Notes: generated from the sequence alone by a model not told the origin. 64,000 nt of DNA from an uncultured Candidatus Altimarinota bacterium (GCA_937999345.1 CALLBL010000005.1:8196-72195); one strand, 5' to 3'. Counted from the stretch's first letter, positions 5,030 to 63,830 are shown. Made by a program: numbers and translations.

Positions 5030-6541
5030 CTACTCTTCTTCGATACTCTTGATCACTTCCTTGAATCTCAGATACTCAGTGATTCTCAGTCACGTAAATC
5101 TTCACATGATAAAGTTAGCTGGAGCTAAAAGTATAATAATCTCAGGATATGCGAGTATAAATACTTGAACAAAACCAATAGTGAATATGAGATAAGCAAA
5201 TATAGCGATGATAAAAGTGTTTACGAGGTTATTTTTGTATTCTCTAAATTCTTTTGAAACTATCACATTTATAAGTCTCTCTGAAACAATAATAAAGAGT
5301 ATGATGTATATGGTATCGCTGAGGTTTACATCGAGGATAGAGTACTTAAATAGTAGATTCATAATAGCAGTAAATAAGACAATATTTATAACAATAATGA
5401 AACTAATTTTTGGTGTATATAAGAGTGTTTGCTTGCTAATAAGCTTACTAATACCAAGGTTTATAAACAGGAGAGAAGCCATAACAACCGTAGAAGCTAG
5501 TGCTCATACTTTGAAAAATAGTACTGAAAATAATACCGTAATGATAAGTCACATAGGAGAGATTCAAATCAAGTGCTTAAAGAAACTCACCAGTGTGAAT
5601 AAAAATGGCAAAAGAATCAATATATATATATCACTTGTGCTAAAACCTTTGTTTGAGAGATTATTAATAAACTTTGAAACAAACATAACTTCACTGACAT
5701 CATTTCCAGGTTCTATTTTGAGGAAATCATATCCATTATTTTGTAGTTCGCTTTCCAGCATGTTCGTACTAGCTGGGTTTTTAACGATTTGAAATTTGAT
5801 AGAATCGTTCATGATTACTACGTTTCATATCGAGTTTTTATTTGATACAAAGTTGTTGAGATAGTTTTTGAGTATATTCGTATTAAATCCTGATATCGCT
5901 ACTATATTGAGTTTTTTATCTGTAGCTATATTGAGCGTATTTATTTTAGAAAGCACTGAAAAAATGAATTCTTTTTCTCACCATATTCAAATATAATCAG
6001 AAGTCGATGAGCTATATCATTTATATTTTGAAAGCATTTCTGAAAAATCAGTATCAAGCAACTCTTTTTCTTTGTACACTCACATATTATGCATATATAC
6101 TCCTGATTGACCTGCTACTTCTATGAAATCGTCTATTTTTTGTTGATCTATTTTATCACTGAATATAAATGGAACACTAACATCATAAACAAAAGCATCT
6201 ATTTGAGAGCTTTGTATAAATCTCTTTTCCCCAGTCTCGTTTGAAAATATACTGAGATTTATTTCCTTTTTTCATGTTTTATCAAAACTCTTTTCAAATA
6301 CTTCTCCCGAGAAAGTTTCTTCTCATTCAGAGCTCCACTCTAAAACTATATTTTCCTCATCAAATGTATTTTTTACTTCGCTGAGATCTATTTTTAGCGT
6401 TTCTTCGAGGGAAATGTTTTTCTTGTATTCAAATATATTTTCATTAATAACCAGGTTATCAGCTGATACGCTTTGCGTCATCAGCATGATACAGATAGCG
6501 AGTATACAAGTATATATTTTTTTCAGTACTGAACTTTTCAT
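5030..6541 (-). CDS. Secreted-domain plus multi-pass membrane protein (possibly the 7TM domain type that is usually fused to an inactive transglutaminase)
   Basis: Signal peptide MKSSVLKKIYTCILAICIMLMTQSVSA, then a ~300-aa external region, then about 7 hydrophobic helices and C-terminal GRFTGLRITEYLRFKEV. No TAA/TAG found between 5033 and 6541 in frame. The family guess rests only on my memory of the C-terminal motif. Confidence 0.6.
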
Positions 6542-10145: not shown

Positions 10146-11393
10146 ATGTATAACGATTATAAAAAAAAGCAAAGATGATTCTCTCTCACAGAGATTATTT
10201 TAGTAGTTTCTATACTCATGATACTTGGTTCTATAGCTATATCAGCTTATAGTGTACACACGAGAACTGCTAGAGACGCGAGCAGAATCAAACAATCCCA
10301 AGAAGTAGCAGATGCTTTTGATATATATGCAGTATCAAAAAAGCTCCCTCAACCTGAAGATGCTGTTGATGTCTTGGTAAATGGTACACTCGTGTGATAT
10401 CAGTGATACGCTTCTGAGGAAATACTGGCAAGACTGAATTTTTTTAATGGTGGACTTGATCCTCTTGATAGAAACTATAAAAATAGAAGAAAGAAAAATC
10501 CTTATACATACTACCTTACAAAAGACTTAAAAAATGCTCAACTCTTGGTCTTTTTAGAGGATAGTAGTAATATAATATCATTTCTTCCAGAGGCTCATGC
10601 AGCTGATTATTCAAATAGAATACCAAAAGTTTCTGGGAAAAAGCTAGGAGTCCTTACTCACAATACTCTCAATACCCCAATTCAAGAAATAGATACTATC
10701 AGGGCTGCAGGAGAACTGGATATAGGTATAACTACCAATTTTTATACAGCTCATATCTCTGATGATAGAAAAATAACTGGAAATTTTAACCAGCTCGCAG
10801 CATCGACTCCTTTTGCAAGTTGTAGGAGAATAGCAGAATCATGAAAGAGATCAGGATGAAATAAAATGTATAGGATAAATCCCGATGGGAATGAATATAT
10901 AGACGTGTATTGTGATATGGATATAGCCAATGGATGATGGATGCTCATCGGTTCTAAGTCATCTGCGTGAGACCAAGAGAAGTGAAATCTCTGAACTGTT
11001 CGTGTTACAGAGGGGAGTAATGCAAATGTAAGTATTCCAAACGATCAAATATTGAATTGATTTACTGAAGCTATGGCATGTTCTTCTGAAAATTGTTGGA
11101 AATGGGATATGTCCGATGTATTTCGTGAATGTATTCGTAGTAATTGCTATACCCCTGAAAGTGATATAAATAATCTTGTGAGAGTAAAGTGAACGAGTTG
11201 ATTTTCTCTCTGAACTACTGATACAATCAAATATAATGATGCATCAAGTTTAGAATATATGTTTTCTCTCTACAATACTGGAACTTCTTTCTCATCACCA
11301 GCTCTATGAGCGTGGAGTGATAGAGTAGACGCTGACTGAGATGGAACATGATCATGGTGAGTCAGGGATCAGTGGCATTTATATATAAGATAA
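10146..11393 (+). CDS. Type IV pilin-like protein fused to a fibrinogen-related (YCDM...GGW) C-terminal domain
   Basis: Class III signal KKQRG/FSLTEIILVVSILMILGSIAISAY (Gly -1, Glu +5). C-terminal CRRIAESGKRSGGNKMYRINPDGNEYIDVYCDMDIANGGWMLIG. Start, internal ORF 10545 and stop are all in one frame. Confidence 0.75.
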
Positions 11394-11779: not shown

Positions 11780-13870
11780 ATGAAATTATTGATTTTCCTT
11801 TCAAGAATCTTATTCTTGGTCTATTACAGAACTATTTTACGAACCTATCTGATGAACAAAAAAACTTTATACCTTACAGCTTCTTTCTTGCTTATTTTTT
11901 GCTCTGCAAATGTATTTGCTCTTTCAACGAGTCAAAAATGACAAATCATAAAGAATTTTGAAAGACTTCAGTATGAAATGATTTTTGAGAGTGATGGAGT
12001 ATTTTTAACTGATAGTGATAGACAAATACTCTCGACTTCAAGAAAGATAAACATATACAGCAGCATAGGTTCAAAGATACAATCAAAAACTGAATATCTA
12101 CAAAAGCAGAGTGAAAAAGTAGTAGATAGAATAGAGTCACTCGAATCAGCTATCGAATGAATAGATGAGAATATAGAGAATATTGTAAAAGAAATTAATA
12201 GGATTAATGCCGAAGTAGTTGAAACCAAATCATCTATAGAGATTAATAAGAAAAAAATCAGTATTCTCAGGAACAAGATCATTCAAAATAGAAATGTCCT
12301 TCTCGAATACATGACGCATCTCTACAAAAAGTGATGATATGTATATGATGAAAATACAAGTGTCGATAATCTCAGGACGATTTTATTGTCATGAGAAGAT
12401 ATGTCATGAGTGATAAATGATATACACTTTAAGTCATTGATACAAATCAGTGGAAAATCTCTCATAGATAAGCATAGAGGATATATCTCAGAGCTTTATA
12501 TCAAAAAAACAGCTCTCGAAAAAGAAGAGCTCAAACTCAAGCAGCTCAGAAAATCATGAGTAATAGAAAAGAAAGTGCTCAATGACAATAAAGAGTTCAA
12601 GGAAAGACTGCTCAATGTAACAAAATGACAAGAAGAGCTTTACCAAAAGTACATCAGTGAAAATCTAGAAAAGCAACAAGAACTCAAAGTAAAAGAACTC
12701 CAAGAGAGAATTAAGTTTAACAATGCAAGAGAATCTCTTCTCGATAGATATAATTGTGATTTTGTAGATGTATCAAGAGAAAAAGAAAAAGCAAAAACGC
12801 TAACTGAGCAGTGTCTCGAACTTAACAAGATTGTATACGCTGAATCGAGACTCAGTTGATTTGGTGACACAAAAAATATCCTTGCTTGGCCAGTTCCTCC
12901 ATTTGGATGAGTAACGGCATATTATCGTGACCAAGGATATACAGATACGTTTTGATCAGCGCATAACGCTATAGATGTCGCAGTTCCTCAATGAACGGAC
13001 ATACTTGCACCAGCTGATGGATACGTCATATTTATTCAACCACCAGTGACAGCTTCTGGATACGCGTATATAGCACTGAAGCATGCATGAGAGCTCGTGA
13101 CTGTACATGGTCATGTGAGTGAAGTCATGGTATGAAAAAATGATTTTGTAAAAAAATGAGAGCCATTTGCAAAGTCAGGTTGATGATATGGGACTCCATG
13201 AGCTTGAGTACTCTCTACATGACCTCACTTGCATATGGAAGTATTTAAGGACAAAGAGTATGAAGACCCATTTAAGTTTCTTGATCTCTCTTATCTTCCA
13301 TTTTCCACTCTACCAGAAAAATATAGGTTTAAATTTTTAGCTGATTTCAAGGAGAGAAAATGATATACATATGAAAAAGGAGAACCAGATGAGAAATCGA
13401 GATGATGAAAAGTATTTAAAATAGAGTGAAATACTGAAGTAGAAAGACAAAAGAACTTTCTCGAAACATATGCAGCTCCTGAGTTTAAAAGCTGGGATTT
13501 ATGGGTAGAGGAAGCTATCGATGGTCAAATTGATCCAACATTTCTGATGTGTCTTGGATTGGCTGAGAGTGGTTTATGAAGAAATCTAAAGACATCATAC
13601 AATGTATGAAATGTTTGAAATACAGATTCTGGATGAACTTACGACTTTCCAAATGCTAGAAGTGGTATTTTCTGGATTACTAAAACACTCAATAATAGGA
13701 TTCTTGGCTGATATACCAAGATAGAAGAGCTGAGTAGATATGGGAATAAAACTGGTTCTATATATGCATCTAGTCCGGATCATTGGCATAACAATATCGT
13801 AAAATGTATGTCCCACGTAAAATGAGAATACGTACCAGATGATTATAATTTTAGAATTACAGAATTATAA
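11780..13870 (+). CDS. Coiled-coil M23 (LytM/EnvC-like) peptidase with extra C-terminal domain
   Basis: WPVPPFGGVTAYYRD...AHNAIDVAVPQGTDILAPADGYV...HGHVSEV...GGGYGTPGAGVLSTGPHLHMEV. Long heptad-like N-region. The alternative start 11852 (MNKKTLYLTASFLLIFCSANVFA) gives a cleaner signal peptide. Confidence 0.85.
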
Positions 13871-20233: not shown

Positions 20234-21304
20234 ATGGTAAATAACACATCAGATATATCTGAAGTAAGTGTCTTAGAACAAAGAGAATCTCTTCAAGAAA
20301 GGAATCCTGATAAACTAGCCTGAGTTTTTAGCAATCTTTCTCTAGAAAATCAAGAAGGAGGTTTTAAGCTTGTAAATTTAGAAAATGTTCTTTGTTGTTA
20401 TCCAAATCAATTAGAAGACTGACAAATTGATTTATGAGATGATTTTTCTCAGTCAGATATTGTTATTCTTAATATGTGAGCATTAAGAAAATGAGAAATT
20501 GAAGTTATTGCTTGAGATAAAAACAAGCTTCCAAAAGATATGGAAAATCCAGTTCTTTTATCTCCATGAGTTATCGAATACTGGGAATGAAAAAAAAGTA
20601 AAAAGTATGTTCAAACTGTACTGAGAGATGGTTGAAAAATGAATGCTTCAGCATGAATCACTAGTTTGGCAGATGCAAATCAAAGAACGACTACAGCCGG
20701 AAGAAACTTCTCAGGAAAACTTCATGAAGATTTGGATATCGAAAACGCTGAAGAATCACCATTCTTGATGAGAGATGAAGAAGGATTCTTTGTTTTAGTA
20801 ATGCCTGATTTAGAAAATAAACACCATCTTATTTCTTCTATAGAAGGTTTCTTGGAAAATAAATATTTGTCACCAGAGGCTGAAAATTTTAAGGAAGTAA
20901 AAAAGAAATTTGAGAGAAAATTTAAATGAGTGAAGTATGAAAAGTTGGGCCCTATATTAGAATGAATCATTAAGAATGACAGCTTTCAGGCATATGAATA
21001 TCAAGATTGAGATATCAAAGGAATAGATAAGCAAAATATTCAATTAGGAGATGAAAAATGAGACTTTTATATATATCATGATGAAGCAAATAATACTATT
21101 GAATATAGAGCTGTTAGAGAAATTACAGCTTTTCCAGAATGATTAGAACCCGTATGAAAAGTCCCTTTGAGATTATTTCTTGAGAGTCAAAATCAAGATC
21201 CTAGTTTGAAAAGAGTAGATAAGATTTGAAAATATGGGAATCGTTCTATATGATTAGTTCCTACTATGGAAGATGTTGCAAAGAGAGTTTCGGAAACAAT
21301 TTAA
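20234..21304 (+). CDS. Hypothetical protein (356 aa)
   Basis: Whole frame checked codon by codon (about 24 TGA, no TAA/TAG). No recognisable motif. Confidence 0.7.
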
Positions 21305-21364: not shown

Positions 21365-21388
21365 AAAGACTCCCGAAAGGGAGTCTTT
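21365..21388. terminator. Bidirectional intrinsic terminator
   Basis: AAAGACTCCC-GAAA-GGGAGTCTTT between convergent genes. Confidence 0.75.
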
Positions 21389-21401: not shown

Positions 21402-22046
21402 TTATTGAGATTCACTTAAAATCTTAACTAAAAGCCACATATGAAATAATCTTTCTCAATCTCCACAAATATTATTTTTAAATAGTATTTCTGCCTCAGA
21501 GACTTTGAAGTCAGCTTTTTCCAGCTCAGCAATCTTTTTAAGGACATCCGATTGATAATATTGGCCATTTCTGTATATTTCTCAATTAACCAATCTTTCT
21601 CAGGCATTATATGCATTGATGATAGCTTGTTTTTCTAATTCATTAAGTTTTCTTCAAAGGCAATCAATTGATTCGGCTTTTAACAATCTATTTTCATTAT
21701 CTAGAGAAGAATCTAATATATCTAGAATAGCCTTTGAGATATCGACATCTTCTGATTTCTCATTTAGATATTTTTTTGCTATATCATCAAGTATGAAAAT
21801 GGATTTTAATATATTTCCTTTATTTTCTCAGGTAGCTGTCGATAACAAATTAATTATGTCTTCAATAAAATCATCAAATTTAGGCTCATATTTTCTATAG
21901 TGAGCTACATCAATCTGAAATTTATCATTATTTCAACGATATAATTCATTTAAGAATGCATCTTTCCAATATTCTTTTTTTTCATTCTGACTTAATTCAT
22001 GATAACTAGCTCATTTTTCTGAGATAGTATTCTTTATATGTTTCAT
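21402..22046 (-). CDS. Hypothetical protein D2 (214 aa), last gene of the operon; its C-terminus shares a ~50-aa module with the 837-aa protein
   Basis: Every codon mapped. C-terminal KQAIINAYNAGERLVNG...SDVLKKIAELEKADFKVSEAEILFKNNICG. Confidence 0.65.
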
Positions 22047-22053
22047 AATTGTT

Positions 22054-22446
22054 TTATTCTGAGAGTATGTTATTTGTCTTTTTTGCTCATTTTTCTATCT
22101 CATCTATAGTATCGGAATATATTCTATTTATAATAGATTCATTTTTTATGATGAATGTATTATTTTTATAGTTTTTTATTATATCTGCATCTTTTAATCT
22201 TGCTCATGCCCTTAATGATTTATGATCATAGATTCATACCCAAGTATCAAAATTAAAATTTTCTTCTGATAATTCTTTAACTTCATGAACCTCCATATGT
22301 GTTCATTTATTTTTAAATATCTCAAAAATAAATTTACCATCGCTAGTTATACATACATCTAAAATTTCACTATAGTTTAAGAATATATGAAATCAATTAT
22401 TTAATGATTCCTTTAGTGATTCAGATATTTTATTAATTTCTACCAT
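22054..22446 (-). CDS. Hypothetical protein D1 (130 aa)
   Basis: Every codon mapped. ATG lies 1 nt after the stop of the HD gene. Ends TAA 22054-22056, just past an A6 tract. Confidence 0.6.
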
Positions 22447-22447
22447 T

Positions 22448-23263
22448 TTATTTTGAAAGTATATCTCAAATTTTAGCTGTGTTCTCATTTCTTTTGTTTT
22501 GAGCTTCTTTAAAGTCTCTTACTTTTTTAAGATCTTTGATTCTCGATTCTTGTACTTCTGAAATCTCATTAGTTTTTAGATAATCAATCACATTTACTAT
22601 TTCTTTCGCTATTACAGGGTATTTATCTTCTATTAATGGAATAACTTGTGATAATGTTCTATCAAAATATCAATTTTTCCATTCTGTATCTTCAGTAAAC
22701 ATTGTACTGTATATATTTGCCAATCTGTCTACAGACTTTACTAGAAGTGCAGAATCAGAGTTCCTTATCGTTGTATAATAATCTTCTTCTTCTATTACTT
22801 TTCAATCCACAGAGAAAGATACAAGTTTTACTATTTCAGCAACTTCTTCTCAAAATTTTAGTACTAATTCATTATAAGATGTATTTGTGTCTTCAAGGAT
22901 ATCGTGTAATAATGTTGCTAAAAATTCTTTTAAACTTCATCAACTCTGAGCACAATATATTGCAGCCATCATTGGGTGGTAGTGATATTCTGTATTTTCA
23001 TCCCTATATTGTCATTTATGCTTATTTTCTATAAAATTAAGTACTTCATATATTACTTCTTTATTGTTTGGAAAAGAAGCATCTACCATTTTCATAAAAC
23101 GTTTAGATATCTCAGATTGATCTAAATAAATATTTATTTCTGATTCTATAGAATTAGATATCTTTTGTGTATTATACCAAGATGGAGTATCTGAAATTTC
23201 TGTGCTTTTTAAACCTTTGGTAAAGTCTTCAACTGAGAATGGTTGTCTAGGCGTTATATTCAT
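22448..23263 (-). CDS. HD-domain phosphohydrolase of the RelA/SpoT (Mesh1/small alarmone hydrolase) type with an 80-aa N-terminal extension
   Basis: NKHKGQYRDENTEYHYHPMMAAIY...LATLLHDILEDTNTSYNELVLKFGEEVAEIVKLVS matches H-x-GQ-x-R...Y..HP...LLHD..EDT...FG..VA..V. Frame scanned and found intact. Confidence 0.8.
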
Positions 23264-23270
23264 AATATTA

Positions 23271-25784
23271 TTATTTAAGTAATGCTTCTTGAAGTTTTAA
23301 TAGTCTTTCTATTTCCTCATTTTTACCTCCTTCAATTATAAGTGTTTCCTGTTTTTTTTCAATTATATTTTTTACTATTATTGATAATTCTCAAGAGTCA
23401 AGATTTTCAGGTGTTTTATTTATTTCTTCTATTCATACAATTCTAGCTTCTCAGATCCCTCTTGAATTATCTACATAATTTATATTGGGTACATCTCTAG
23501 AGTTTAATTCATTCATTACATTTCTTACTTTTTTATATGTTTCTTTATAATATGAAACTCATACTGGCCTCCCAGTTTCTATTGCTCTTTTTACTATAGA
23601 TTCCCGTGCTTGTATAGGATCTCTATGTATCATATCAATATCTATATTGTGAATATTTGCTTTATTCGCCTCATTTTGTAAGTAGTCAATAAATCTTATA
23701 TCACTTAGTGGTGAATCAAATGTTATATCTGCTTGTCTATTTCGTGAATTTTCTACTACTTTTCCAGCTGAAGATTTTCATGATCCTGGTGCACCTCATA
23801 TTAATCTAATTCTAGAATTTATATCTCATTCTATTCCAAGTAGGAGTAATCTATAATGTATTTTGCTTAATTTTTGTACTATTTCATCAAATTCAGAACT
23901 ATTGAATCACTTATATTTTATAAAAATTTCTCTAAATGCATCGGGATCAATAACCTTTCAATTTTTAGCTGTATATATTGAAAATAATTCTTTTAATAAT
24001 TTATTTCAAGATACTAATTTTAAGACTTCCTCATGGCTTATAGATTCTTTAATAATAAATCATTTATCTTTATCAAAAATTTTAACAAATCATGGTATCT
24101 GTTCTAATTTGTCTATTGAAAGATCTAACTCAAGTATTCTTGATTTTATAGTTTCCGAACCACAAATATTATTATCAAGAAGCTTTCTAATATCTGTATT
24201 ATCAAATCCTCCTTGTTTCAGCGTTTTTACTTTCTTAGAGATATCCGAGATTGGATACAAACCATCCTCTCATCTCTCTCAGATCCTATGAGCCTTTATA
24301 ATTGCTTTTTTCTCTACGTCTTTTAGGTCTCTTCATAGATTTAATACACTTACAGCCTTATCTAATCGATCTATATCATCAGCTGAGAAGTCTAAGTTTT
24401 TCGTTTCTTCTACTTTCCCAAACAACATCTCCTTTATCTTCTTCACAGTATCTGGGCCTATCCCCATCTTTTCTCACATATCAGCAAAGCTTTTCATCAG
24501 AACACTTGGTTTTATTCTTCCAATTGCTTTTCAAACTTTTCAGAGTTTTCCAGCCTTTACTAAGCCTTGTACTCAAAATGCAGTAGCTCATAAACTTATT
24601 AGTCATATTAACCATTCAGCTGGAAACTCTTCCATATGAAACTCTTTTGGTACTATTCCTGATGCTTTCAATCATTTCATCACTCCATCCTGATTGGTGA
24701 GAGTACTTGTTAAATCTGCTGGCACACTCGTCACTGCTCCTGCATAAGGAATGAGTTGAGAAAGAACCGTTATGAGATATGCTACCATAGCATCTGATTG
24801 TATAGCTTGATCTGCTTCGCTGAGCATAGTTATCTCACGAATAGTAGATATATCTCATCCCATAGCTTCAAATCTTTTCATATGTCATCCCATATTTACT
24901 TGGAGGGTATCTATTTGAGCCATGCCATTGAAACCAAGCTCATCAAATTCTCAGCTCTTTGTATCTACTGGTGCATTAAACATTTCTTGAGCCTCAGATA
25001 TATTTCTCCCAAGCATACCTCTCACTATATTTTGTCTTTCTTCTATTGTTACGGTTCTTGAAGGTATCATATCTGAAGCAGGAAGCTCATATTCTTCAAA
25101 TTCCATACTCGCTATAGTATTTTCTATAAATACTTCTCTACTTTCTGCTTTGCTATACTCTTGAAGCATAAAGGCACTTGGAAGTATCTTATTGTTTATT
25201 TCTCAGAGATTATCTTGGATTTTTACATTGAGTATCCACCTCTGACCTGCTATATCTTCAGGATTGTTTTTCTTAATTTTCTGTACTATGTCTCAAATTT
25301 TTGAGATACGTATTCAGATAGAGGCTATTATTTTATTTTTTATTTCAGGCTGCAGCTCTGCTAAATCATTCTCTATATAATCCTTGTATCCACTTAGATA
25401 CTGAGAAATATCTAAGTTCAAACCATCAGTTGTTAGTTCTTCGTGAATAGAAACCAAATCATTGATTCAAAAATATTCTCATAGTGCTCATAGTGACTGA
25501 ATTTTCTCTCAGGCTTGTTCCATTATCTGTGGAAGATTCATACTTTGCATTTGAGAAACAAGAGCTTCTCAGATTTGTGATTGTTTTAGGTGTAGCGCGC
25601 TCGCAAATAAGGGATTAGATGAGGCTAAACTTGATACTATATCACGAGTTTGTTCTAAGTTTCCATCCTCAGCTATAGCATCTATACTTTCCATATCTCA
25701 CTTCAATAAAGCCTCAGAATGTATTGCTTGTACTTCTGGACTTATGCTTGGTCATTCGAAATATTCCGTGTTAGCTTGTTCCAT
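23271..25784 (-). CDS. 837-aa protein: unknown helical N-region, hydrophobic hairpin, C-terminal Zeta-toxin-like P-loop kinase domain
   Basis: Whole frame scanned: no TAA/TAG. Walker A RLIGGAPGSGKSSAGKVV (nt 23769-23798), then ADITFDSPLSD and NIDIDMIHRD. Hydrophobic AMVAYLITVLSQLIPYAGAV and EWLIGLISLGATAFGVQGLV. ATG overlaps the upstream TAA (TAATG). Confidence 0.75.
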
Positions 25785-26095
25785 TATATGATGCTTTGTA
25801 ATAAATTTTCTAACTCTTTTTCTTTGCTTATTGATTCACTTTTTTCTAATTGTCTTTCTTTTTTCATTCTATACTTTACATATTCTTGTTTGATATATGA
25901 AGGCTCTATATTATCTCTTTTTCTTTCTTCTTTTAAAAACTCTAAGAGTATCTTATTTTCTGCCGATATCAGCTCTGAGATAACTCCTAACTGTTTCTCT
26001 GATAGTTTTTCAAAATGCATTAAAATTTCCTGTTTCATATGTTCAGGAATTATTAATGTATCTTGTATTTGCTTATAGAGAAAGTTAGTATCCAT
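25784..26095 (-). CDS. Small helical protein A (103 aa), first gene of the operon
   Basis: Intact standard ORF ending in TAA. Charged, coiled-coil-like (KQEYVKYRMKKERQLEKSESISKEKELENL). Confidence 0.7.
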   Translation of the reverse strand: MDTNFLYKQIQDTLIIPEHMKQEILMHFEKLSEKQLGVISELISAENKILLEFLKEERKRDNIEPSYIKQEYVKYRMKKERQLEKSESISKEKELENLLQSII

Positions 26096-27246: not shown

Positions 27247-27777
27247 TTACATATTCTCTCTATATTCCATGTGAAGCTTTCAAAGAATATTTCTTCACTG
27301 CCTTGCGTCATGGCTAATTCAAAAAAACTCATCTCACCAATAGGTGAATTCTATAATCTCTCTATCTCAGGTGCTTCTTAGCATATCTTGCCTCCAAGAA
27401 CTATTATCATATTTCTTCTGTATAGTTTCTCTCATAAATTCTATTCTGTTTTCATCATTTATATTCATGATGCTTTTGTATTTGTATGCAACTTTTTTAG
27501 AGGTGTTTTTTATTTTTGAGGCTGCAGCTATTTCTTTTTTTATTTCTAAATCATCAAATCGAAGAGACATATAGTATCATTCACTATCCTCATATATATT
27601 TCCATGTCCATCTTGTATGGGATATTTAAGATGACTAAAGTTTGAACCACGCTCAAAAGCATCATAAAATTCTCAGCGAGTAATTTTGTATCTTTCTAAT
27701 ATTTGAGGATGTATGATGAGATACGCTTCCTGTATTCTTTTTGGAGTATATATTTCTAGTGGGTAGTTTGATAGCAT
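27247..27777 (-). CDS. Hypothetical protein (176 aa)
   Basis: Table-25 ORF starting 12 nt downstream of the desaturase stop. No motif recognised. Confidence 0.55.
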
Positions 27778-28725: not shown

Positions 28726-29595
28726 ATGGTTCTCAGAGTTCCTCAAGATAATGGTCATGAATATACTGATTACAAAGATGCTATTGATAATATTAACCAG
28801 CACCTTTTATATATACAAGAAAATCACGAACCTCAATTAAACTGGTCTATTTATGGTTCTTTTCTTCATAATAGATTACGTCCTGGATTGAGTGATATAT
28901 ATGTATATTTATTACACGATAGTGATAGAGATGATTTCCCATTAGATATAGTATCATCTTGCCTAGATATAAAAACAAGTTTAGAAGATATTTGAATTCC
29001 TATAAAGATGCATCATACAACTACATGACAATTGAGTGAAAATTATTTTTCTTATTCTGATTATGCTATGGAGATAGTAAGATGAATACAAAGTCCGTAT
29101 TGTTCTCAGGATTTCAAGGTTTTATTTTCACACATTGAGAATATGCAAAAGAGTAATAAGGATATGATGAATGCTTATGTAGAAGATATAAAAACTCTTT
29201 TAGCTTTTTTACCAAAAACAAAAGAATTATCATCTATTCCAAAAAATAAAATTAATCCTCAAGAACAAGGAGAATTGGTAGAAATCTGGAGTATTTTTAG
29301 AAAAATGATTTCTATTTGTGCACTTGCTATAGAGCTAGATGATACTATACATATAGATGAATCTGCTTTTAGTAAGCCATATAGATGGGTAATCCAATGT
29401 TTTGCTTCAGAGTTTGATCCACATTGTACTGAAAATCTTATACAATATTATTTGAGAACAATTATTGGCATTAGAAATATGGATGATTGGTATCGTTTCT
29501 TATCTAATTGATGAGTAAGAAAAATAGAAAAACTTTATGAGAAGGTATTTATACCATTTTTAAATGCTATAGATAATAAATTTACAATAAAATAA
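28726..29595 (+). CDS. Pol-beta-superfamily nucleotidyltransferase-like protein, catalytic motif degenerate (paralogue 1)
   Basis: IYGSFLHNRLRPGLSDIYVYLL: G-S present, but DxD is replaced by DIY. Frame verified. Shares N- and C-terminal blocks with the next gene. Confidence 0.65.
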
Positions 29596-29597: not shown

Positions 29598-30470
29598 ATG
29601 CCATTAATAGTTCCAACATTACAAGACTACGATGAAGCAGAACAAAAGATTATTGAGTTTTTTTGAGATGTAGAATTTTTCAGGAGAGTAAATCAGAAAG
29701 TAGACTATATTATATATGGTTCATATTCAACTGATAAAGTAAGACCATGACTGAGTGATATAGATATGATGATACTCGCTCATACTGATGATTTAGTTTT
29801 TCCTTTTGATGTTTGAACAGCTTTTGCTTGGACGAAATGAGAAATAGAACAATTGGGTATACCTTTGCAGGTCAATATGTGTACTACTGGATTATTGAAT
29901 AGTCAACATTTTTCACCTGATTATGAATATCTTATGGAAGTGAAAAAATGAATAGAGAGATGAAAAACTTCGTCTAATAACATATGAAAATATTTTAAAA
30001 ATCATCGAGATAGTGATATAGATGATATGCATATGGTAAGATACTTTCTCAGAAAGGTAAATTCTCTTTATCAGGATTTCCGCAATATAGATCATTTAAT
30101 AATGAGATATAGTAAAGAAGACCTTAATAGGGAGCAGCAAAAAAAAGTTTGGCACGCATGGGATAATTTTAAAAAGATGATGTCAATTATTACTGTTGTA
30201 TTAAGAATCCAGAATAAAGAATCTTTGTTTTCAGAGACAGATGCTCATATAATGGAAAAATTTTCTCAAAATTTTGACCAAGATATAGATATGTCTGAAT
30301 ATGTTGTCATACTAGAATCTATTCAAGACATATGAGATTGGTATGATTTTTTACAGAGTAGTAAAGACGATGGTTTTAGAAGAATTATAGATTTATATAA
30401 AAATACTTTCACTCCGATGATAAATACTATTGATAAAAAATTATTGCTTCCAACTGATTCCAACATATAA
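29598..30470 (+). CDS. Pol-beta-superfamily nucleotidyltransferase domain protein (paralogue 2, motif intact)
   Basis: IYGSYSTDKVRPGLSDIDMMIL (GS...DxD). Frame verified. ATG lies 2 nt after the previous stop. Confidence 0.7.
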
Positions 30471-34419: not shown

Positions 34420-36183
34420 ATGTTAAGAACGCACAAGTGTAATGAACTTACCAAGGATAATATCGGAGATGAAGTAACACTCTCTGGTTGGGTAAGCAAC
34501 AGAAGAGATCATGGTGGAATTATCTTTATCGATCTCAGAGATAGATACGGACTTACTCAAGTAGTTTTCGATCCAGAGGATGATAAGGCTTCATGGGAAA
34601 TGGCTGATAAATTTAGAAGTGAGTATGTAATCCAGGCAACTGGAAAGGTGAGAAGTAGACCAGACGGACAAACCAATCCAAATATGGAAACAGGGGAAAT
34701 CGAGGTAATTATATCAGAGGTAAAACTCCACTCAAAATCTAAAACTCCACCATTTGAACTAGATGAGCATGCAACCGAAGCAAACGAAGATATCAGACTC
34801 AAATATCGTTATCTCGATATTCGTAGAAAAAAGATTCTCGATTATATCAAGTTCCGTAGCAAGATGACTACCTATACAAGAAACTGGTTTACTCAGAAAG
34901 ACTTCCTCGACGTGCAGACTCCTATCCTTGCTAATTCTTCTCCAGAGTGAGCCAGAGACTTCCTAGTACCATCTCGTATCCACCCAGGACAGTTCTACGC
35001 ACTTCCTCAAGCACCTCAGCAGTTTAAGCAACTCCTCATGGTTGGTGGTATAGATAAATACTTCCAAATAGCACCATGTTTCCGTGATGAAGACCCAAGA
35101 GCAGATAGACATGCTGGTGATTTTTATCAAGTTGATTGTGAAATGAGTTTTGTAGAACAATCAGATGTATTTGATGTAGTCGAAGGATATCTACTCGATA
35201 TAACCAAAGATCTCTCAGATAAAAAAGTGATAACAGAAACAGCTGCAAATGATGTCATCAGAGAAGGAGGGAAGTTTTTTACTCTTACTCATCATGAAGC
35301 AGTAGAAAAATACTGATCAGACAAACCAGATCTCAGATTTGGTCTCGAGATGGTAGATGTACTTGATATATTTGCGAGAAGTACCAATGAAATATTTTCA
35401 GGTATCGCAGCTTATCCAGTAGCAAATAGAATCAAAGCTATCAAAGTACCAAATGGAGATAACGAATTCTCAAAAACTCAAATGAAAGGATTTGAAAGCT
35501 ATGTACGCAAGTTTGGAGCAAAAGGACTTGGGTATTTTCAAATGAAAGAAGACTGACTCAAAGGGCCACTGAATAAATTCTTCGCAGAAGCTGATTTAGA
35601 AGAAATAGTAAGTAGAACTGGACTCGAAGTTGGTGATGTAGTATTCTTTGGAGCAGGTGAGAGAGATCTCGTGTGTAACTATATGGGGAGATTTAGAAAT
35701 TATATAGCAGATATGTTAAAGCTCGCTGATAAAGATGAGATTTCTTTCTGTTGGATAACTGACTTCCCGATTTTTGAACAGGATGAAGATACAGGAAAAA
35801 TAGACTTTGAACACAATCCATTTTCTATGCCTCAGGGATGAATCGCAGATTTTGATAAAGAATGAAAAGATCTTCTCGATGTGATCGGATTCCAATACGA
35901 CCTCTCATGTAATGGATATGAAATTCTCTCAGGAGCTATCAGAAACCACGATGTAGATGCGCTGGTAAAAGCCTTTGAAAAAGTAGGAAGAAGTGCAGAG
36001 GAAGTAAAAACCAAGTTTGGGGCTGTATATGAAGCGTTTCAATATGGAGTTCCTCCACATGGATGATTTGCTATCGGTATCGATAGACTCATGATGATAT
36101 ATGTAGATGAGCACAACATTCGTGATATCTATGCATTCCCGAAATCAGGGAAGGCTCGTGATGAGATGATGAACTCTCCTATA
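34420..36183 (+). CDS. aspS: Aspartyl-tRNA synthetase (bacterial type); conserved C-terminal tail continues in another frame to 36239
   Basis: OB domain [84 protein letters not shown]. In-frame TAG at 36181. The expected tail LAVEQEQLDELHLEI is offset by one base. Confidence 0.9.
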
Positions 36184-36243
36184 GCTGTGGAACAAGAACA
36201 ACTCGATGAACTGCATCTAGAAATAAACGAAACAGAATAAATA

Positions 36244-48068: not shown

Positions 48069-51638
<3,570 letters not shown>

Positions 51639-51679: not shown

Positions 51680-55711
<4,032 letters not shown>

Positions 55712-61314: not shown

Positions 61315-63591
61315 ATGAATGTATCAAAAATAAAATCTTTCTTTTTGGATAATAAAAAATCGCTTTTTTATACAGTATTTTTTCTTTTTTCATTTTTTCT
61401 TTTTAGTGATTTAGCTTTTGCTAATAATGCTACATGAGGAACTTGAGAAAGTGACACCATAAATGAAGTGATTAAAGTAGTAAATTATATACTAGTGATG
61501 TCATCAGCCTTATTATGAGCTGCTACTGCTATGATATCGTTGTTTTTAACACCAGGTTGGGTGAATGGAACTATTTTTGGCCTTGATTCATATATGAAAG
61601 ATATGTGGATTATGATTTCAAATATAGTTTATTTTGCTTTTGCATTCATACTTATCACGATAGCATTCATGAATATCATATGAAAATGAGATAAATGGGA
61701 ACTTAAATCTGCGTTACCTAAATTTATAGTGTGAGTAGTAATGGTTCCATTTACGTGGTTTTTCGTACAATTTATTCTTTCTATATCTGCTATACTGACA
61801 GTATGAGTTCTTACACTTCCATATGATTCTTTTGAATCAAAATCAACCTATCAAGATGCAATAAAACAGATGGAAGCAATTATCTCTAATCCAGAAAATC
61901 AAAATACTTCATGAGATCAAGCTAACGAATGAATACCTACCACTTTCATATTAAATCTTTCTCAAAATCTTGTTCCAGCTAGTTGAGAAAATGGAGCGTC
62001 AGTAAAAAAGAAAGAAGAATTTCTAGTGCAGTGAAACGATAAAAAAATAACTGAAATACTAAAATGAGATGGTGCATCAGGTCATGAAAATAGTATATTT
62101 TGAGTACTCGGATTATATACATATGGTATAATGCAAATTCAACATTTAGATACAGAAAATGGTTGGTTATTCTGAGAAGCTATTAGCGATATTACCGATA
62201 TGACTCTCAAGTTAGTTTTTGATGCTCTATTTATCATAGTGTATTTAGTGCTTATGATTGCTCTTTTCTTAGCATTATTAGTAAGAGGAATAAAGCTTTG
62301 GGTATATGCTATGTTGTCTCCAGCGTTTGGATTACTTTATTTCTTTGATAAAACTGATGGAGTATGATCTGGGAGTGCTAAATTTGGAATAAAAGATTTC
62401 ATATCTCTTGCTCTTGTCCCAGTTTATGTAGCTGCAGCATTATCATTTGGACTATTATTTATAATGGTATCGAGTCATGGTATGTGAACATCCAGCTTAT
62501 TAGCAAAATGTACAACTGAAGATTTAGCTGGTATAGAATCATCAGTTTCTCCAGACAAAATGAACTGTATGAATATAGGTTCATTTACGTTTGCTATTCA
62601 ATGAGCTGTCTGAGAATCAACTTGATGAGCTCCTTCAGGATGAGCATTTGGAAGAATTATTATGCAATTATTTGGTATTGTTGTATTATGGTTGGCTGTG
62701 ATGATGGCATTAAAACAATCTGAAATAACTGAACAAATTGCTAAACCAATTTGAGACTTCTGAAATAGTGTATGATGATTGGTTGCTAAATCACCTATGT
62801 ATGCACCTATAATACCTGGAGGATTGAGTGTGACGTGACTTAAGAGTGCTTGATCTACTGTTACTTCTGCTGTTGAACAAAGATCTTCTAGACAATGATC
62901 TGATTTTGCACAGCAGAATTTCCCATGATTATTCTGAGAAAATTTTAAGAAATTAAATGATGCAACAATTAATCTTAGAAGTGCTGCACAAGATATGGAT
63001 AAGTATAATAGATCAAGGGAGTTAATAGCTACAGCATGAAGTGCCCAAGCCTTAGCAGATAATAAGCCAGCAAGAGAGGCTTTAGCTGACGCATTTAAAT
63101 CTATCAGATCATGAGCTTTTGGTTTTGATGTATCTGAAGAAAGAATTGACGAATTAAGAAATGCATCCTCAGCTGATGCAGTTAGATGAATACTTAGAGA
63201 TATTGAAAGAAAAGCAAGAAGCGAGCAACATACTATTTTATGAACTAGATCTGAAAGAGATGTTCAAACATCAGATCAAGTTGATTCAGCTATTAGAAGA
63301 ATGTCACCTACAGAAAATCCAATAGAAGCAACTCTGTCGTCTTCGCCTAGCTCAGCACAAATCCAACAAGTTACTAACAAGGCTTGAGATCAAATAGATC
63401 TAAATATAAATCCAAGTAATAGTGCTAGCGATATAAGTAATAACATTAGAACTACACTATGATTTAGTCAAAATGATGTGATTGATTCTTCAACTCTTAC
63501 AGATATCAGGAATAAATTAGATGACATTGATGATCTAGATGGTAAAGTTGATGCGATAATAACATGATTGAAACCAACTTCTACCGATTAA
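61315..63591 (+). CDS. Large multi-pass membrane protein (758 aa) with long hydrophilic C-terminal tail
   Basis: All 758 codons checked (many TGA, no TAA/TAG). Signal-like N-terminus, at least 8 hydrophobic helices, Gly-rich loops, Ser/Asp/Asn-rich tail. A VirB6/TrbL-like role is only a guess. Confidence 0.65.
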
Positions 63592-63630: not shown

Positions 63631-63830
63631 TATTATATATTTTTGCTATAAACTCATATAAATCAATTATCTCTACCCCAGGGCACTATCTCTTATTTCT
63701 TCGAAATAATTCACCTTGTACTCATGCTATATTGAGCTTCCTGATGTTTTCAGGAGCAAATATAAGTATGTTTGCAATTTAAAGCGAATAGATTAAAATG
63801 TATAGTAATTGATATATAACTTATATAAAC

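What the first reader, a model, noticed from the sequence alone, without database searches (positions are those of the whole stretch)
23271..25784. The 837-aa protein has a polymorphic-toxin-like layout: long unknown N-region, hydrophobic helical hairpin, C-terminal enzymatic head
Seen: there is no signal peptide. About 340 aa of helical, acidic sequence come first. Two hydrophobic helices follow (AMVAYLITVLSQLIPYAGAVTSVPA and EWLIGLISLGATAFGVQGLVKAGKLGK, nt about 24520-24750). Next is a Gly/Lys-rich linker, then a conserved module ending in NNICG, then the Walker-A domain (nt 23274-23830). Established: polymorphic toxins place variable toxin heads after a pre-toxin region that often contains a hydrophobic helical hairpin, and Zeta-like kinases are among the known heads. 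Inference: B could be an exported or contact-delivered effector of an episymbiotic or predatory CPR cell rather than a classical intracellular TA toxin.
Basis: inference. Interest (0 to 1): 0.68.

Follow-up and report, generated by a model that had tools for sequence, protein, structure and literature searches.

The report
Modular toxin locus in a Gracilibacterium
This 837-residue protein belongs to an unannotated family, mainly from Gracilibacteria, in which a conserved helical carrier region is joined to interchangeable enzyme heads that each bring their own protective gene, making it a candidate weapon or host-manipulation system of these tiny symbiotic bacteria.

Summary
The 837-aa ORF (23271-25784, minus strand) has an acidic helical N-region. 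Two conserved moderately hydrophobic helices follow (aa 332-352 and 390-410), then a Lys/Gly-rich segment, a module ending in NNICG, and a C-terminal P-loop domain.

Close relatives share about 82% DNA identity up to or just before the NNICG codons, then carry unrelated heads (ABC1/APH kinase-like, RelA/SpoT-like). An exhaustive search found 79 cluster representatives whose C-terminal tails fall into 28 unrelated groups.

Downstream genes co-vary with the head. The window's Zeta-like head is followed by a SpoT-type HD hydrolase, and this pair recurs in a distant relative with a much more diverged carrier.

The carrier models confidently but has no structural match in PDB or BFVD. A small upstream partner gene co-evolves with it.

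Not shown: export or contact delivery. There is no signal peptide and no consistently linked secretion system. Zeta-family membership of the head is only marginal.

Verdict: a new polymorphic-toxin-like effector and immunity family, with an intracellular toxin-antitoxin or defence role as the main rival.

The parts
25784..26095 (-). Small partner gene (103 aa, helical, acidic C-terminal end). Its stop codon overlaps the start of the large gene by 1 nt.
   Evidence: Present upstream of the large gene in W, L001-L005, L010/L011 and L012, and in L009 with one in-frame stop. It is 72-76% identical between the window and the three close loci, whatever head they carry. It diverges in step with the carrier: 25-31% identity to L004 and L010. 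No Pfam, NCBIfam, PHROGs or PADLOC match.
24345..25784 (-). Constant carrier region of the 837-aa protein (aa 1 to about 480): an acidic, all-helical domain.
   Evidence: 72-83% protein identity to the three close alleles. It defines a family of 79 cluster representatives. Modelled with pLDDT 70-93 for aa 20-345. The correctly translated relative P0031 gives pLDDT 83 and pTM 0.72. No structural match in PDB or BFVD. No Pfam, NCBIfam or PHROGs match.
24729..24791 (-). Hydrophobic helix 1 (aa 332-352, ...AMVAYLITVLSQLIPYAGAVT), flanked by the invariant or near-invariant residues L321, D325, P346 and D357.
   Evidence: Together with helix 2 it is the most conserved part of the protein among close alleles, at 96-100% identity.
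24555..24617 (-). Hydrophobic, Gly-rich helix 2 (aa 390-410, EWLIGLISLGATAFGVQGLVK). It is separated from helix 1 by a 37-aa acidic loop.
   Evidence: The loop is 37 aa in 17 of 20 relatives, with a mean charge of -3.4.
24510..24554 (-). Cationic Lys/Gly-rich segment after helix 2 (aa 411-425, AGKLGKVGKAIGRIK).
   Evidence: The charge of the 20 residues after helix 2 is +5 in the window protein and averages +2.6 across the family.
24159..24338 (-). Junction ('pre-toxin') module, aa 483-542, ending in NNICG. Family consensus: LGRxLxxxEKxAIxxAHxxG...ILxxAGFxxxExRxLMxxGIxG.
   Evidence: Found directly before the variable head in about 25 family representatives, and in 6 tandem copies in P0079. 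DNA similarity to L003 ends at nt 24160, exactly at the end of the motif.
23271..24158 (-). Variable head (aa 543-837 plus stop codon): a P-loop kinase-like, Zeta_toxin-like domain. Walker A (GGAPGSGKSS) is at nt 23772-23795.
   Evidence: Pfam Zeta_toxin scores 28.0 bits for the isolated head and 22.7 bits for the full protein, against a cut-off of 22.3. The same head occurs in P0033/L004 at 41-42% identity, scoring 25.3 bits. The highest-probability Foldseek hits are the N. gonorrhoeae epsilon/zeta toxin, but they come from a poor model. hhalign to zeta toxin (1GVN_B) aligns only the P-loop.
22448..23263 (-). Cognate partner (putative immunity) gene: a 271-aa SpoT/Rel-type HD hydrolase (small-alarmone-hydrolase-like), starting 7 nt after the toxin's stop codon.
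   Evidence: Pfam HD_4 scores 37 bits against a cut-off of 27.2. It matches TIGR00691 positions 2-121, the hydrolase half, at E=6e-17. The HP..., LLHDxLEDT and DRLxN motifs are conserved. It is 49% identical over its full length to the HD_4 protein that follows the same head in L004 (E=2e-78), although the carriers there are only about 28-31% identical. The two genes share 67% nucleotide identity.
22054..22488 (-). ORF of 144 aa (probably 130 aa, starting at the ATG at 22446). Function unknown.
   Evidence: No family match. No detectable relative in the other loci.
21402..22046 (-). ORF of 214 aa carrying a second, orphan copy of the junction module (aa 130-195, nt 21462-21659, ...KNNICG). Only 19 residues follow the module, so no head is attached.
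   Evidence: 45-47% identical to the module of the large proteins. The module HMM hits only these two places in the window.
21365..21388 (-). Intrinsic terminator (10-bp stem with 5 G-C pairs, then a T-run) that closes the five-gene minus-strand operon.

Best explanation
The locus is a five-gene operon (26095 to 21402, minus strand). It encodes a member of a previously unannotated, Gracilibacteria-centred family of modular toxin or effector proteins, built like polymorphic toxins.

Shown:
- A small helical partner protein and a roughly 480-aa carrier domain form the constant part. The carrier has a new helical fold and contains a conserved pair of moderately hydrophobic helices.
- A roughly 60-aa junction module ending in NNICG marks the point where recombination exchanges the C-terminal enzymatic head together with the gene or genes that follow it.

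Inferred:
- In this window the head is a divergent Zeta-toxin-like P-loop kinase. I infer that it phosphorylates a nucleotide-type substrate.
- The SpoT/Rel-type HD hydrolase encoded 7 nt downstream is its cognate immunity protein. Most likely it removes the toxic phosphate from the product, or otherwise it binds the head.
- The carrier and its partner export the protein and insert it into a target membrane through the hydrophobic pair. This would deliver the head into a host, prey or competitor cell of this episymbiotic bacterium.
For: Head exchange among close alleles:
- Four close alleles have the same N-terminal 478-542 aa but three unrelated heads: Zeta_toxin-like, ABC1/APH kinase-like and RelA_SpoT-like.
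- Nucleotide identity of about 82% runs from 26177 to 24361, 24262 and 24160, then stops dead. For L003 the stop is exactly at the end of the NNICG codons.
- The head and the HD_4 gene instead share 67-68% nucleotide identity with the distant locus L004.

Family-wide diversity:
- 79 cluster representatives, with tails in 28 unrelated groups.
- Recognisable heads are RelA_SpoT, Zeta_toxin, kinase-like, PP2C+DnaJ and ATLF-like.
- The junction module precedes the head in about 25 representatives.

Partner genes track the head:
- Zeta-like head, then HD_4 (W and L004; 49% identity).
- RelA_SpoT head, then HD_4 (L001 and L005).
- Kinase-like head, then a 152-174-aa family with a 'GIYxG' motif (L002, L003, L009, L010).

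Displaced cassettes: the 170-aa gene in L001 lies behind that locus's own HD_4 gene, and the window has an orphan junction module in its 214-aa ORF.

Other support:
- The HD_4 catalytic motifs are intact.
- The small partner tracks the carrier, not the head.
- The carrier models confidently but matches nothing in PDB or BFVD.
- The hydrophobic pair is conserved, with a fixed 37-aa loop.
- A single terminator closes the operon.

Literature:
- toxSAS toxins are neutralised either by binding or by enzymatic hydrolysis of the product, and are fused to many different export domains (PMC12691689).
- RelA/SpoT heads and pre-toxin domains are hallmarks of polymorphic toxins (PMC3482391).
- The Zeta toxin-kinase is listed among effector domains of polymorphic toxin and allied systems (PMC12419801).
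Against: - No signal peptide and no known trafficking domain such as LXG, PAAR, MuF or RHS.
- No secretion-system genes are consistently nearby. T4SS genes lie about 3.5 kb away in L009 only. None are seen in the other loci, and none turned up among the window's ORFs that were scanned.
- The acidic loop and cationic tail around the hydrophobic pair fit a hairpin anchored in the producer's own membrane, with both ends in the cytoplasm.
- Several loci lie in defence-island-like contexts: CBASS in L003, AAA_13 in L002, Mrr in L004 and Fic in L005.
- All the recognisable heads that have a partner gene are classic toxin-antitoxin toxins.
- Zeta-family membership is marginal.
- No experiment supports toxicity, immunity or export.
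Confidence: 0.6

Rival explanations
1. It is an intracellular toxin-antitoxin or abortive-infection defence module. The carrier domain is a membrane-anchored sensor or regulator in the producer cell, held by the hydrophobic hairpin with both termini in the cytoplasm. The head is a self-directed toxin that is normally neutralised by the downstream antitoxin (here the HD hydrolase) and is unleashed on phage attack or envelope stress. Head swapping would then be the effector-module shuffling typical of defence systems.
For: - No signal peptide.
- An acidic 37-aa loop and a cationic post-helix tail fit the positive-inside rule for an N-in/C-in hairpin.
- The heads that have partner genes (Zeta, RelA_SpoT/toxSAS, kinase-like) are classic TA toxins, and SAH-type hydrolases are known toxSAS antitoxins.
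- Neighbours include CBASS (L003), AAA_13 (L002), Mrr (L004) and Fic (L005).
- No secretion system is consistently linked.
Against: - The upstream small protein follows the carrier, not the head, so it is not a head-specific antitoxin.
- Displaced partner genes and an orphan junction module behind the cognate pair are hallmarks of polymorphic toxin loci rather than TA loci.
- The family includes tails of up to 2,011 residues beyond the carrier match, and heads such as PP2C+DnaJ and ATLF-like protease, some with no partner gene at all (L008). These look like effectors rather than suicide toxins.
- There are no PADLOC hits.
- The hydrophobic helices are only marginally hydrophobic (KD about 1.6), and they model as part of a compact soluble-looking domain.
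Confidence: 0.27
2. It is a divergent member of the T7SS LXG-type toxins: an N-terminal helical targeting domain, small helical Lap-like partner genes upstream, a variable C-terminal toxin and a downstream immunity gene, exported by a type VII system.
For: The gene order and logic are the same: a small helical partner, then a helical N-domain fused to a variable head, then an immunity gene. RelA/SpoT heads are known on LXG proteins (PMC12691689; PMC3482391).
Against: - No LXG or WXG100 Pfam hit even at E up to 1.
- The carrier is about 480 aa and contains a hydrophobic helix pair, which as far as I know LXG domains lack (own knowledge).
- The Foldseek search of the carrier model against the PDB found no significant match of any kind.
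- No EssC-like gene was seen in the window or in any locus.
Confidence: 0.05
3. It is a phage- or conjugative-element-borne 'polyvalent' protein that travels with DNA into a recipient cell.
For: L002 has a DnaG-like primase, an HTH protein and a resolvase nearby, and L004 has a Rep3 replication gene. L009 lies near T4SS genes.
Against: - No PHROGs hit for the carrier, partner or head.
- No tblastn hit for the carrier in 50,697 phage records, or for the head in 72,556 plasmid records.
- No hit in IMG/VR.
- No structural match in BFVD.
- In the window and in L006, L008, L009 and L013 the gene sits among housekeeping genes such as recF, rpsT and ribosomal protein operons.
Confidence: 0.03

Closest known systems
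Polymorphic toxin systems in general (CdiA-CT/CdiI with the VENN junction, Rhs, MafB; Zhang et al. 2012, PMC3482391)
   Same: A constant N-terminal part, a short conserved junction motif where recombination swaps the C-terminal toxin, an immunity gene directly downstream that co-varies with the toxin, and displaced or orphan cassettes behind the main gene.
   Different: The carrier domain, the junction module (ending in NNICG) and the small partner match no described trafficking or pre-toxin domain. There is no signal peptide and no linked secretion system. The host lineage is a code-25 CPR bacterium.
LXG toxins of the type VIIb secretion system with Lap partner proteins
   Same: Small helical partner gene or genes upstream, a helical N-terminal domain without a signal peptide, variable enzymatic heads (including RelA/SpoT-type) and a downstream immunity gene.
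   Different: No LXG signature by Pfam. The carrier is more than twice as long and contains a conserved hydrophobic helix-loop-helix. No T7SS genes were found.
T6SS prePAAR effectors with N-terminal transmembrane helices and Eag chaperones (for example Tse6, and Tas1/Apk1 with a (p)ppApp synthetase head)
   Same: Hydrophobic helices lie in the constant region of a soluble-until-delivered toxin, a small dedicated partner protein could shield them, and alarmone-synthetase-type heads occur in the family. The comparison rests on my own knowledge of these effectors.
   Different: There are no prePAAR or PAAR motifs and no T6SS. The hydrophobic pair lies about 330 residues into the protein rather than at the N-terminus.
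toxSAS-SAH toxin-antitoxin modules (FaRel/PhRel family with small alarmone hydrolase antitoxins; PMC7229694, PMC11782079)
   Same: A SpoT-type HD hydrolase is encoded next to a nucleotide-modifying toxin as its neutraliser. Relatives of the window protein (L001, L005) carry exactly this RelA_SpoT plus HD_4 pairing.
   Different: In the window, and in L004, the hydrolase is paired with a P-loop, Zeta-like kinase head rather than a RelA/SpoT synthetase. I found no paper that mentions both 'zeta toxin' and 'alarmone hydrolase'. The toxin is also fused to a 540-aa carrier.
Epsilon/zeta (PezAT) toxin-antitoxin systems, and the Zeta-like type III effector AvrRxo1 with its partner Arc1 (PMC5923241, PMC5087710, PMC5491322)
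   Same: A P-loop kinase head with a GGxPGSGK[ST]S Walker A and a Pfam Zeta_toxin score above threshold. Zeta-family enzymes phosphorylate nucleotide sugars or NAD (producing 3'-NADP). AvrRxo1 shows that a Zeta-like kinase can be a delivered effector.
   Different: Similarity beyond the P-loop is weak. The partner is an HD hydrolase, not an epsilon, PezA or Arc1-type binding protein. About 110 conserved residues precede the P-loop.

Membership tests
Polymorphic toxin systems | Close homologues share the N-terminal region but carry unrelated C-terminal toxin domains. | tested here: met
   Three head types occur on four alleles. DNA identity of about 82% ends abruptly at 24361, 24262 and 24160. 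The 79-member family has 28 unrelated tail groups.
Polymorphic toxin systems | An immunity gene lies immediately downstream and co-varies with the toxin domain. | tested here: met
   Zeta-like head followed by HD_4 in W and L004, 49% identical. RelA_SpoT head followed by HD_4 in L001 and L005. Kinase-like head followed by the 'GIYxG' family in L002, L003, L009 and L010. Gene linkage is shown; the protective function is inferred.
Polymorphic toxin systems | Orphan or displaced toxin or immunity cassettes lie downstream. | tested here: met
   L001 carries the kinase-head partner (170 aa) behind its own HD_4 gene. The window carries an orphan junction module in the 214-aa ORF.
Polymorphic toxin systems | A recognisable trafficking domain, signal peptide or genomic linkage to a secretion system. 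| tested here: not met
   No signal peptide. No Pfam or NCBIfam trafficking domain. T4SS genes lie near only 1 of the 12 distinct family loci examined.
Polymorphic toxin systems | Delivery to, and intoxication of, other cells. | not testable with these tools
   Needs co-culture, secretome or competition experiments.
Zeta toxin family (PF06414) | The score to the family model is above the curated threshold. | tested here: met
   22.7 bits for the full protein and 28.0 bits for the isolated head, against a cut-off of 22.3. The diverged head of P0033 scores 25.3 bits. This is marginal and covers profile positions 87-188 only.
Zeta toxin family (PF06414) | Walker A P-loop of the GxxGxGK[ST] type. 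| tested here: met
   GGAPGSGKSS at aa 662-671 is invariant between the two heads and aligns to GGQPGSGKTS of zeta toxin 1GVN_B.
Zeta toxin family (PF06414) | Alignment over the whole kinase core, including the catalytic Asp and the substrate-binding Arg residues. | tested here: inconclusive
   hhalign of the two-sequence head profile against zeta toxin aligns only 20 P-loop columns. Sequence searches of the PDB give only P-loop hits. By eye, an Asp 20 residues after the P-loop Lys (TFD690S) matches the spacing of zeta D65/D67. That is an inference, not a test.
Zeta toxin family (PF06414) | Zeta-type fold. | tested here: inconclusive
   The head was modelled poorly, at pLDDT 40-55. Even so, the highest-probability Foldseek hits are the N. 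gonorrhoeae epsilon/zeta toxin (probability 0.33-0.77, E=0.8-3).
Zeta toxin family (PF06414) | An epsilon/PezA-type proteinaceous antitoxin partner. | tested here: not met
   The conserved partner is an HD_4 hydrolase.
RelA/SpoT-type HD hydrolases (small alarmone hydrolase-like, PF13328 HD_4) | Family model score above threshold, with conserved catalytic His, HD and Asp motifs. | tested here: met
   HD_4 scores 37 bits against a cut-off of 27.2. TIGR00691 hydrolase region E=6e-17. HP..., LLHDxLEDT and DRLxN are conserved in all four HD_4 partners.
RelA/SpoT-type HD hydrolases (small alarmone hydrolase-like, PF13328 HD_4) | Hydrolysis of 3'-(pyro)phosphorylated nucleotides. | not testable with these tools
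   Needs an enzymatic assay.
LXG / T7SS toxins | An N-terminal LXG domain and T7SS core genes in the genome. | tested here: not met
   No LXG or WXG100 hit at E up to 1. No EssC-like gene was seen in the 64-kb window or in the fetched loci. Whole genomes were not available.

The most novel reading that the evidence does not exclude
The carrier domain and its small partner form a Gracilibacteria-specific protein delivery platform that is new to science. It would be either self-translocating through its conserved hydrophobic helix-loop-helix, or a substrate class of the still substrate-less patescibacterial T4SS or type IV pilus machinery. The episymbiont would use it to inject interchangeable enzymes into host or prey cells. 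In addition, the Zeta-like kinase paired with a SpoT-type hydrolase would be a new toxin-immunity chemistry, in which the immunity protein enzymatically removes the phosphate that the toxin adds to a nucleotide-type target.
Probability: 0.25. Interest if true: 0.88.

Novelty: new variant of a known kind. Interest (0 to 1): 0.72.

Why it matters
How ultrasmall CPR/Patescibacteria episymbionts attack, manipulate or compete over their hosts is largely unknown. Their widespread T4SS has no known substrates (PMC12102498). The Vampirococcus genome paper, searched for 'toxin', 'effector', 'secretion system' and 'type IV', mentions no delivered protein effectors.

This locus gives a concrete, testable candidate effector family. 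It has a recognisable constant carrier, a diagnostic junction motif, dozens of mostly uncharacterised heads and matched immunity genes. All the NCBI entries looked up are 'hypothetical protein'.

It also points to a previously unreported pairing of a Zeta-like kinase with an alarmone-hydrolase-type enzyme. This could reveal a new toxic nucleotide modification and its reversal.

Finally, it shows how TGA recoding hides such families. In public protein databases most members are translated with Trp in place of Gly, and under the standard code the ORF breaks into fragments.

Tried and rejected
- **Table-11 ORF calling.** It fragments the gene and had to be replaced by code 25.
- **Word-index homologue searches.** The full protein gave only 4 hits, the head alone gave none, and the profile of the carrier gave 3. 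Only the exhaustive HMMER search revealed the family.
- **Code-25 translations.** The window protein was therefore modelled only in its database form, with Trp at the 35 TGA positions, and its head model is poor.
- **The search for related loci.** The narrower one found nothing in genome, viral or metagenome collections.
- **Sequence searches of the PDB.** The head, and then a two-sequence head profile, gave only P-loop hits. hhalign to zeta toxin aligned only the P-loop.
- **Foldseek.** Both models against the PDB and the carrier model against BFVD gave no significant match for the carrier.
- **Library and collection scans.** PADLOC, NCBIfam and PHROGs gave nothing for the carrier, partner or head. 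tblastn gave nothing in plasmid or phage collections.
- **The 'broken-hairpin' trafficking domain.** Considered as a lead (PMC12419801) and rejected: it is a short C-terminal beta-hairpin, not this helical N-terminal carrier.
- **The HD_4 gene as a leftover orphan immunity from a RelA_SpoT allele.** Considered and rejected, because the same HD_4 subtype (49% identity) follows the same Zeta-like head in a distant relative.
- **T4SS linkage.** Suggested by L009 but not reproduced in the other loci.
Full report
**1. Genetic code and the ORF**

Under the standard bacterial code the region is a patchwork of short ORFs. The minus-strand frame of 23271-25784 contains 35 in-frame TGA codons. One of them sits at the second glycine of a Walker A motif, GAPGS[TGA]KSS. 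The rpoB, rpoC and aspS genes of the window also contain 15, 20 and 6 in-frame TGA codons. At the TGA positions of the large gene, correctly translated homologues have Gly (20) or Ala (19) and never Trp.

The window therefore uses code 25 (TGA=Gly), the code of Gracilibacteria and Absconditabacteria. Read that way, the ORF is intact at 837 aa. NCBI entries of family members are named 'hypothetical protein [Candidatus Gracilibacteria bacterium]'.

**2. The observation**

- No hydrophobic N-terminus.
- A net charge of -30 over aa 1-340.
- The two most hydrophobic 19-residue windows of the protein at aa 333-351 and 391-409.
- A Lys/Gly-rich stretch at aa 410-425.
- NNICG at aa 538-542.
- Walker A at aa 664-671.

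**3. The operon**

On the minus strand the genes run in this order:
- A 103-aa gene (26095-25784), whose stop codon overlaps the start of the 837-aa gene by one base.
- The 837-aa gene.
- A 271-aa gene that starts 7 nt after the 837-aa gene's stop codon (23263-22448).
- A 144-aa ORF.
- A 214-aa ORF (22046-21402).
- A strong intrinsic terminator at 21388-21365.

**4. Head swapping among close relatives**

The word-index search found only four homologues, but they are decisive.
- P0001 is the same protein.
- P0002 and P0003 share the N-terminal 540 or so residues and then carry an ABC1/APH kinase-like head.
- P0004 shares about 478 residues and then carries a weak RelA_SpoT-like head.

At DNA level the window is about 82% identical to these three loci from nt 26177, upstream of the small gene, down to 24361 (L001), 24262 (L002) and 24160 (L003). 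Beyond those points there is no detectable similarity. The L003 breakpoint coincides with the end of the NNICG codons (24159-24173).

By contrast, the head and the following gene share 67-68% nucleotide identity with L004, a locus whose carrier is only about 28-31% identical in protein sequence. So the head and its downstream gene have a different history from the carrier, which is the signature of cassette exchange.

**5. The family**

An exhaustive HMMER search with the N-terminal 542 residues found 79 cluster representatives at E<=1e-3, of which 43 were at E<=1e-10. Lengths run from 97 to 2,289 aa.
- Most members have 4-8% Trp because their TGA codons were translated as Trp.
- Others have normal Trp content. 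Of these, P0021 and P0045 translate correctly under the standard code, while NCBI entries such as P0024 and P0040 do not and are evidently code-25 translations.
- The sequences C-terminal to the shared region fall into 28 unrelated BLAST groups.

Pfam recognises only some heads:
- RelA_SpoT (P0023, 39.6 bits).
- Zeta_toxin (P0033, 25.3 bits).
- ABC1/APH (the P0002 group of eight).
- PP2C plus DnaJ (P0050).
- An ATLF-like metalloprotease (P0052, weak).
- FHA (P0034).

The rest are unannotated.

**6. The junction module**

The 60 or so residues ending in NNICG are a family-wide module with the consensus LGRxLxxxEKxAIxxAHxxG...ILxxAGFxxxExRxLMxxGIxG.
- It lies directly before the variable head in about 25 representatives and is present six times in tandem in P0079.
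- In the window a second copy forms the C-terminal part of the 214-aa ORF, at 45-47% identity, with only 19 residues after it. It is an orphan junction without a head.
- It is absent from P0004, where the breakpoint lies just upstream.

Its behaviour parallels the VENN-type pre-toxin motifs of other polymorphic toxins (PMC3482391). Its biochemical role is unknown.

**7. Partner genes co-vary with the head**

- Zeta-like head. It is followed by an HD_4 protein both in the window and in L004. The two HD_4 proteins are 49% identical over their full length (E=2e-78), while the heads are 41-42% identical and the carriers about 28-31%.
- RelA_SpoT heads (L001, L005). These are followed by more distant HD_4 proteins, 31-36% identical.
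- Kinase-like heads (L002, L003, L009, L010/L011). These are followed by proteins of 152-174 aa that share a C-terminal GIYxGxIV(D/N)...Y motif.
- Displaced gene. In L001 a 170-aa member of that last family sits behind the locus's own HD_4 gene.
- No partner. P0050 (PP2C+DnaJ) has no partner gene; the next gene is rpsT.

The window's HD_4 protein matches the hydrolase half of RelA/SpoT proteins (HD_4 37 bits; TIGR00691 positions 2-121, E=6e-17). It keeps the HP..., LLHDxLEDT and DRLxN motifs, so it is probably an active enzyme.

**8. What the head is**

Pfam Zeta_toxin is the only family hit. It scores 22.7 bits in the full protein and 28.0 bits for the isolated head, against a cut-off of 22.3.
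- Sequence searches of the PDB give only P-loop matches.
- I validated a zeta toxin sequence against 1GVN_B. hhalign of the head profile against it aligned only the P-loop: LIGGAPGSGKSS against LLGGQPGSGKTS.
- The head could be modelled only from the Trp-substituted database sequence with one homologue, giving pLDDT 40-55. Even so, the highest-probability Foldseek hits are the gonococcal epsilon/zeta toxin (probability 0.33-0.77, E=0.8-3).

I therefore call it a divergent Zeta-like P-loop kinase, with membership not firmly established.

Zeta-family enzymes phosphorylate UDP-sugars or NAD (3'-NADP in the case of AvrRxo1; PMC5923241 and PMC5087710). SpoT-type hydrolases remove 3'-pyrophosphate from nucleotides, and hydrolase-type neutralisation is established for toxSAS toxins (PMC12691689). 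This makes enzymatic reversal by the HD_4 partner chemically plausible. That step is inference. I found no paper that mentions both 'zeta toxin' and 'alarmone hydrolase'.

**9. The carrier**

In the window-equivalent model, aa 20-345 are helical with pLDDT 70-93. The correctly translated Gracilibacteria relative P0031 is 446 aa and consists of the carrier only. Modelled with a 52-sequence alignment, it gives pLDDT 83 and pTM 0.72, all helical, with the hydrophobic helices modelled confidently as part of one domain.

Foldseek found no significant match in the PDB (best E=2.6, TM<=0.19) or in BFVD (best E=0.43). Pfam, NCBIfam, PHROGs and PADLOC are silent.

Across 20 diverse members:
- The two hydrophobic segments have mean best-18 Kyte-Doolittle values of 1.61 and 1.76, against a maximum averaging 0.70 elsewhere in the N-terminal part.
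- The loop between them is 37 aa in 17 of the 20 and is acidic (mean charge -3.4).
- The segment after helix 2 is cationic (mean +2.6).

Invariant or near-invariant polar and structural residues flank or lie within helix 1: L321, D325, P346 and D357. The hydrophobicity is marginal for a constitutive membrane helix. That fits a soluble protein able to insert into a membrane, but the charge pattern equally fits an N-in/C-in hairpin in the producer's membrane.

**10. The small partner**

The gene of about 103 aa is found upstream in W, L001-L005, L010/L011 and L012, and in L009 with one in-frame stop. It is 72-76% identical between the window and the three close loci, regardless of head. It diverges in step with the carrier, at 25-31% identity to L004 and L010. 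Standard-code relatives have a short overlapping upstream ORF in the same position.

It is therefore a partner of the carrier, such as a chaperone, adaptor or regulator, and not a head-specific antitoxin.

**11. Delivery**

This is the weak point.
- No signal peptide and no known trafficking domain.
- No phage or plasmid relatives.
- No consistent neighbour. One locus (L009) lies 3.5 kb from a VirD4-type coupling protein and a possible T4SS pilin, but the other loci do not.
- The window itself shows a type IV pilin-like gene and an M23 peptidase about 10 kb away, but no T4SS or T7SS gene among the ORFs scanned.
- Patescibacteria do have a widespread T4SS whose substrates are unknown (PMC12102498), so this is a lead rather than a finding.
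- Several loci lie next to defence genes: CBASS, AAA_13, Mrr and Fic.

**12. Conclusion**

Shown:
- A modular family with a constant carrier plus partner.
- A junction module.
- Recombinationally exchanged heads.
- Head-matched downstream genes and displaced cassettes.

This is the architecture of polymorphic toxin and effector systems.

Inferred:
- The downstream genes confer immunity.
- The window's head is a nucleotide-directed kinase reversed by the HD hydrolase.
- The carrier mediates export and membrane translocation.

The main rival is an intracellular, membrane-anchored TA or abortive-infection system with shuffled effectors. It explains the missing secretion signal, the charge pattern and the defence-island neighbours. 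It explains less well the orphan cassettes, the very long and exotic tails, the heads without partner genes and the carrier-specific small partner.

I put about 0.6 on the polymorphic toxin/effector reading and about 0.27 on the rival.

**13. Novelty**

The concept is known, but the carrier fold, the junction module, the small partner and the Zeta-like kinase plus SpoT-type hydrolase pairing are not described in anything I could search. The lineage, a recoded CPR episymbiont, is one where effectors are essentially unknown. I rate it a new variant of a known kind.

Noticed in passing
whole window; e.g. 48069-51638, 51680-55711, 34420-36240: The window uses genetic code 25 (TGA=Gly). rpoB, rpoC and aspS carry 15, 20 and 6 in-frame TGA codons. 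Table-11 ORF lists are misleading throughout the window.
   Followed up: yes
window 27247-27777 (-): A NADAR-domain protein (Pfam 54.7 bits) lies 1.2 kb upstream of the operon. From my own knowledge, NADAR enzymes process ADP-ribose adducts, so it may be a stand-alone immunity or repair gene against ADP-ribosylating toxins.
   Followed up: no
window 28726-29595 (+) and 29598-30470 (+): Two tandem paralogues (28% identical, E=5e-31). The second has a weak NTP_transf_2 nucleotidyltransferase match. They may be another conflict-related gene pair.
   Followed up: no
window 10146-11393 (+), 11780-13870 (+), 5030-6541 (-): A type IV pilin-like protein (N_methyl motif) with a fibrinogen-C-like segment, a 696-aa M23 peptidase with a long coiled-coil N-region, and a 7TM_transglut membrane protein. 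These are cell-surface and attachment functions typical of episymbionts.
   Followed up: partly
window 61315-63591 (+): A 758-aa polytopic membrane protein with a long hydrophilic C-terminal tail and no Pfam match. From my own knowledge this architecture resembles VirB6/TrbL-type T4SS channel proteins. VirB6 homologues are reported as undetectable in Gracilibacteria.
   Followed up: no
window about 63830-64000 (+): A partial ORF at the window's end (MKVVIKKDGDGFLAEVEGHDNVYAYGATESEAKSELLKVIE...) looks like a HicB-type antitoxin. This judgement comes from memory and was not tested.
   Followed up: no
window 20234-21304 (+): A 356-aa ORF convergent with the operon. It has no family match in Pfam, and its function is unknown.
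   Followed up: no
L009 9272-14319 (-): In this Gracilibacteria-type contig of 107 kb, a VirD4/TraG-type coupling protein (PF02534), a possible T4SS pilin and two secreted proteins lie 1-3.5 kb downstream of the family locus. This was not seen in the other loci.
   Followed up: partly
L003 3778-5720 (-); L002 4127-6601 (-) and 10984-12920; L005 6901-7977; L004 18331-20301: Family loci lie next to CBASS (SMODS plus SAVED), an AAA_13 protein, DnaG-like primase and resolvase genes, a Fic protein, and Mrr and Rep3 genes. These are variable defence or mobile-element neighbourhoods.
   Followed up: partly
P0079 (809 aa, standard code), aa 182-651: Six tandem copies of the junction module in one protein, together with an ALTTAQ repeat hit. 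The module can evidently exist as a repeat array apart from the carrier.
   Followed up: no
P0050 / L008 603-4052: A family member whose head combines PP2C phosphatase and a C-terminal DnaJ domain, with no partner gene downstream (rpsT is next). It looks more like a host-manipulating effector than a bactericidal toxin.
   Followed up: partly
L010 4424-5341 and L005 6148-6576: A further shared downstream gene (52% identity, faint Hydrolase_4 match) occurs behind different head and partner pairs. It is another element of the mosaic cassette array.
   Followed up: no
database proteins P0001-P0004 and most of P0005-P0081: Public protein collections hold most of this family translated with TGA as Trp (4-8% Trp). 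This degrades domain detection and structure prediction, and probably explains why the word-index searches missed almost all relatives.
   Followed up: yes
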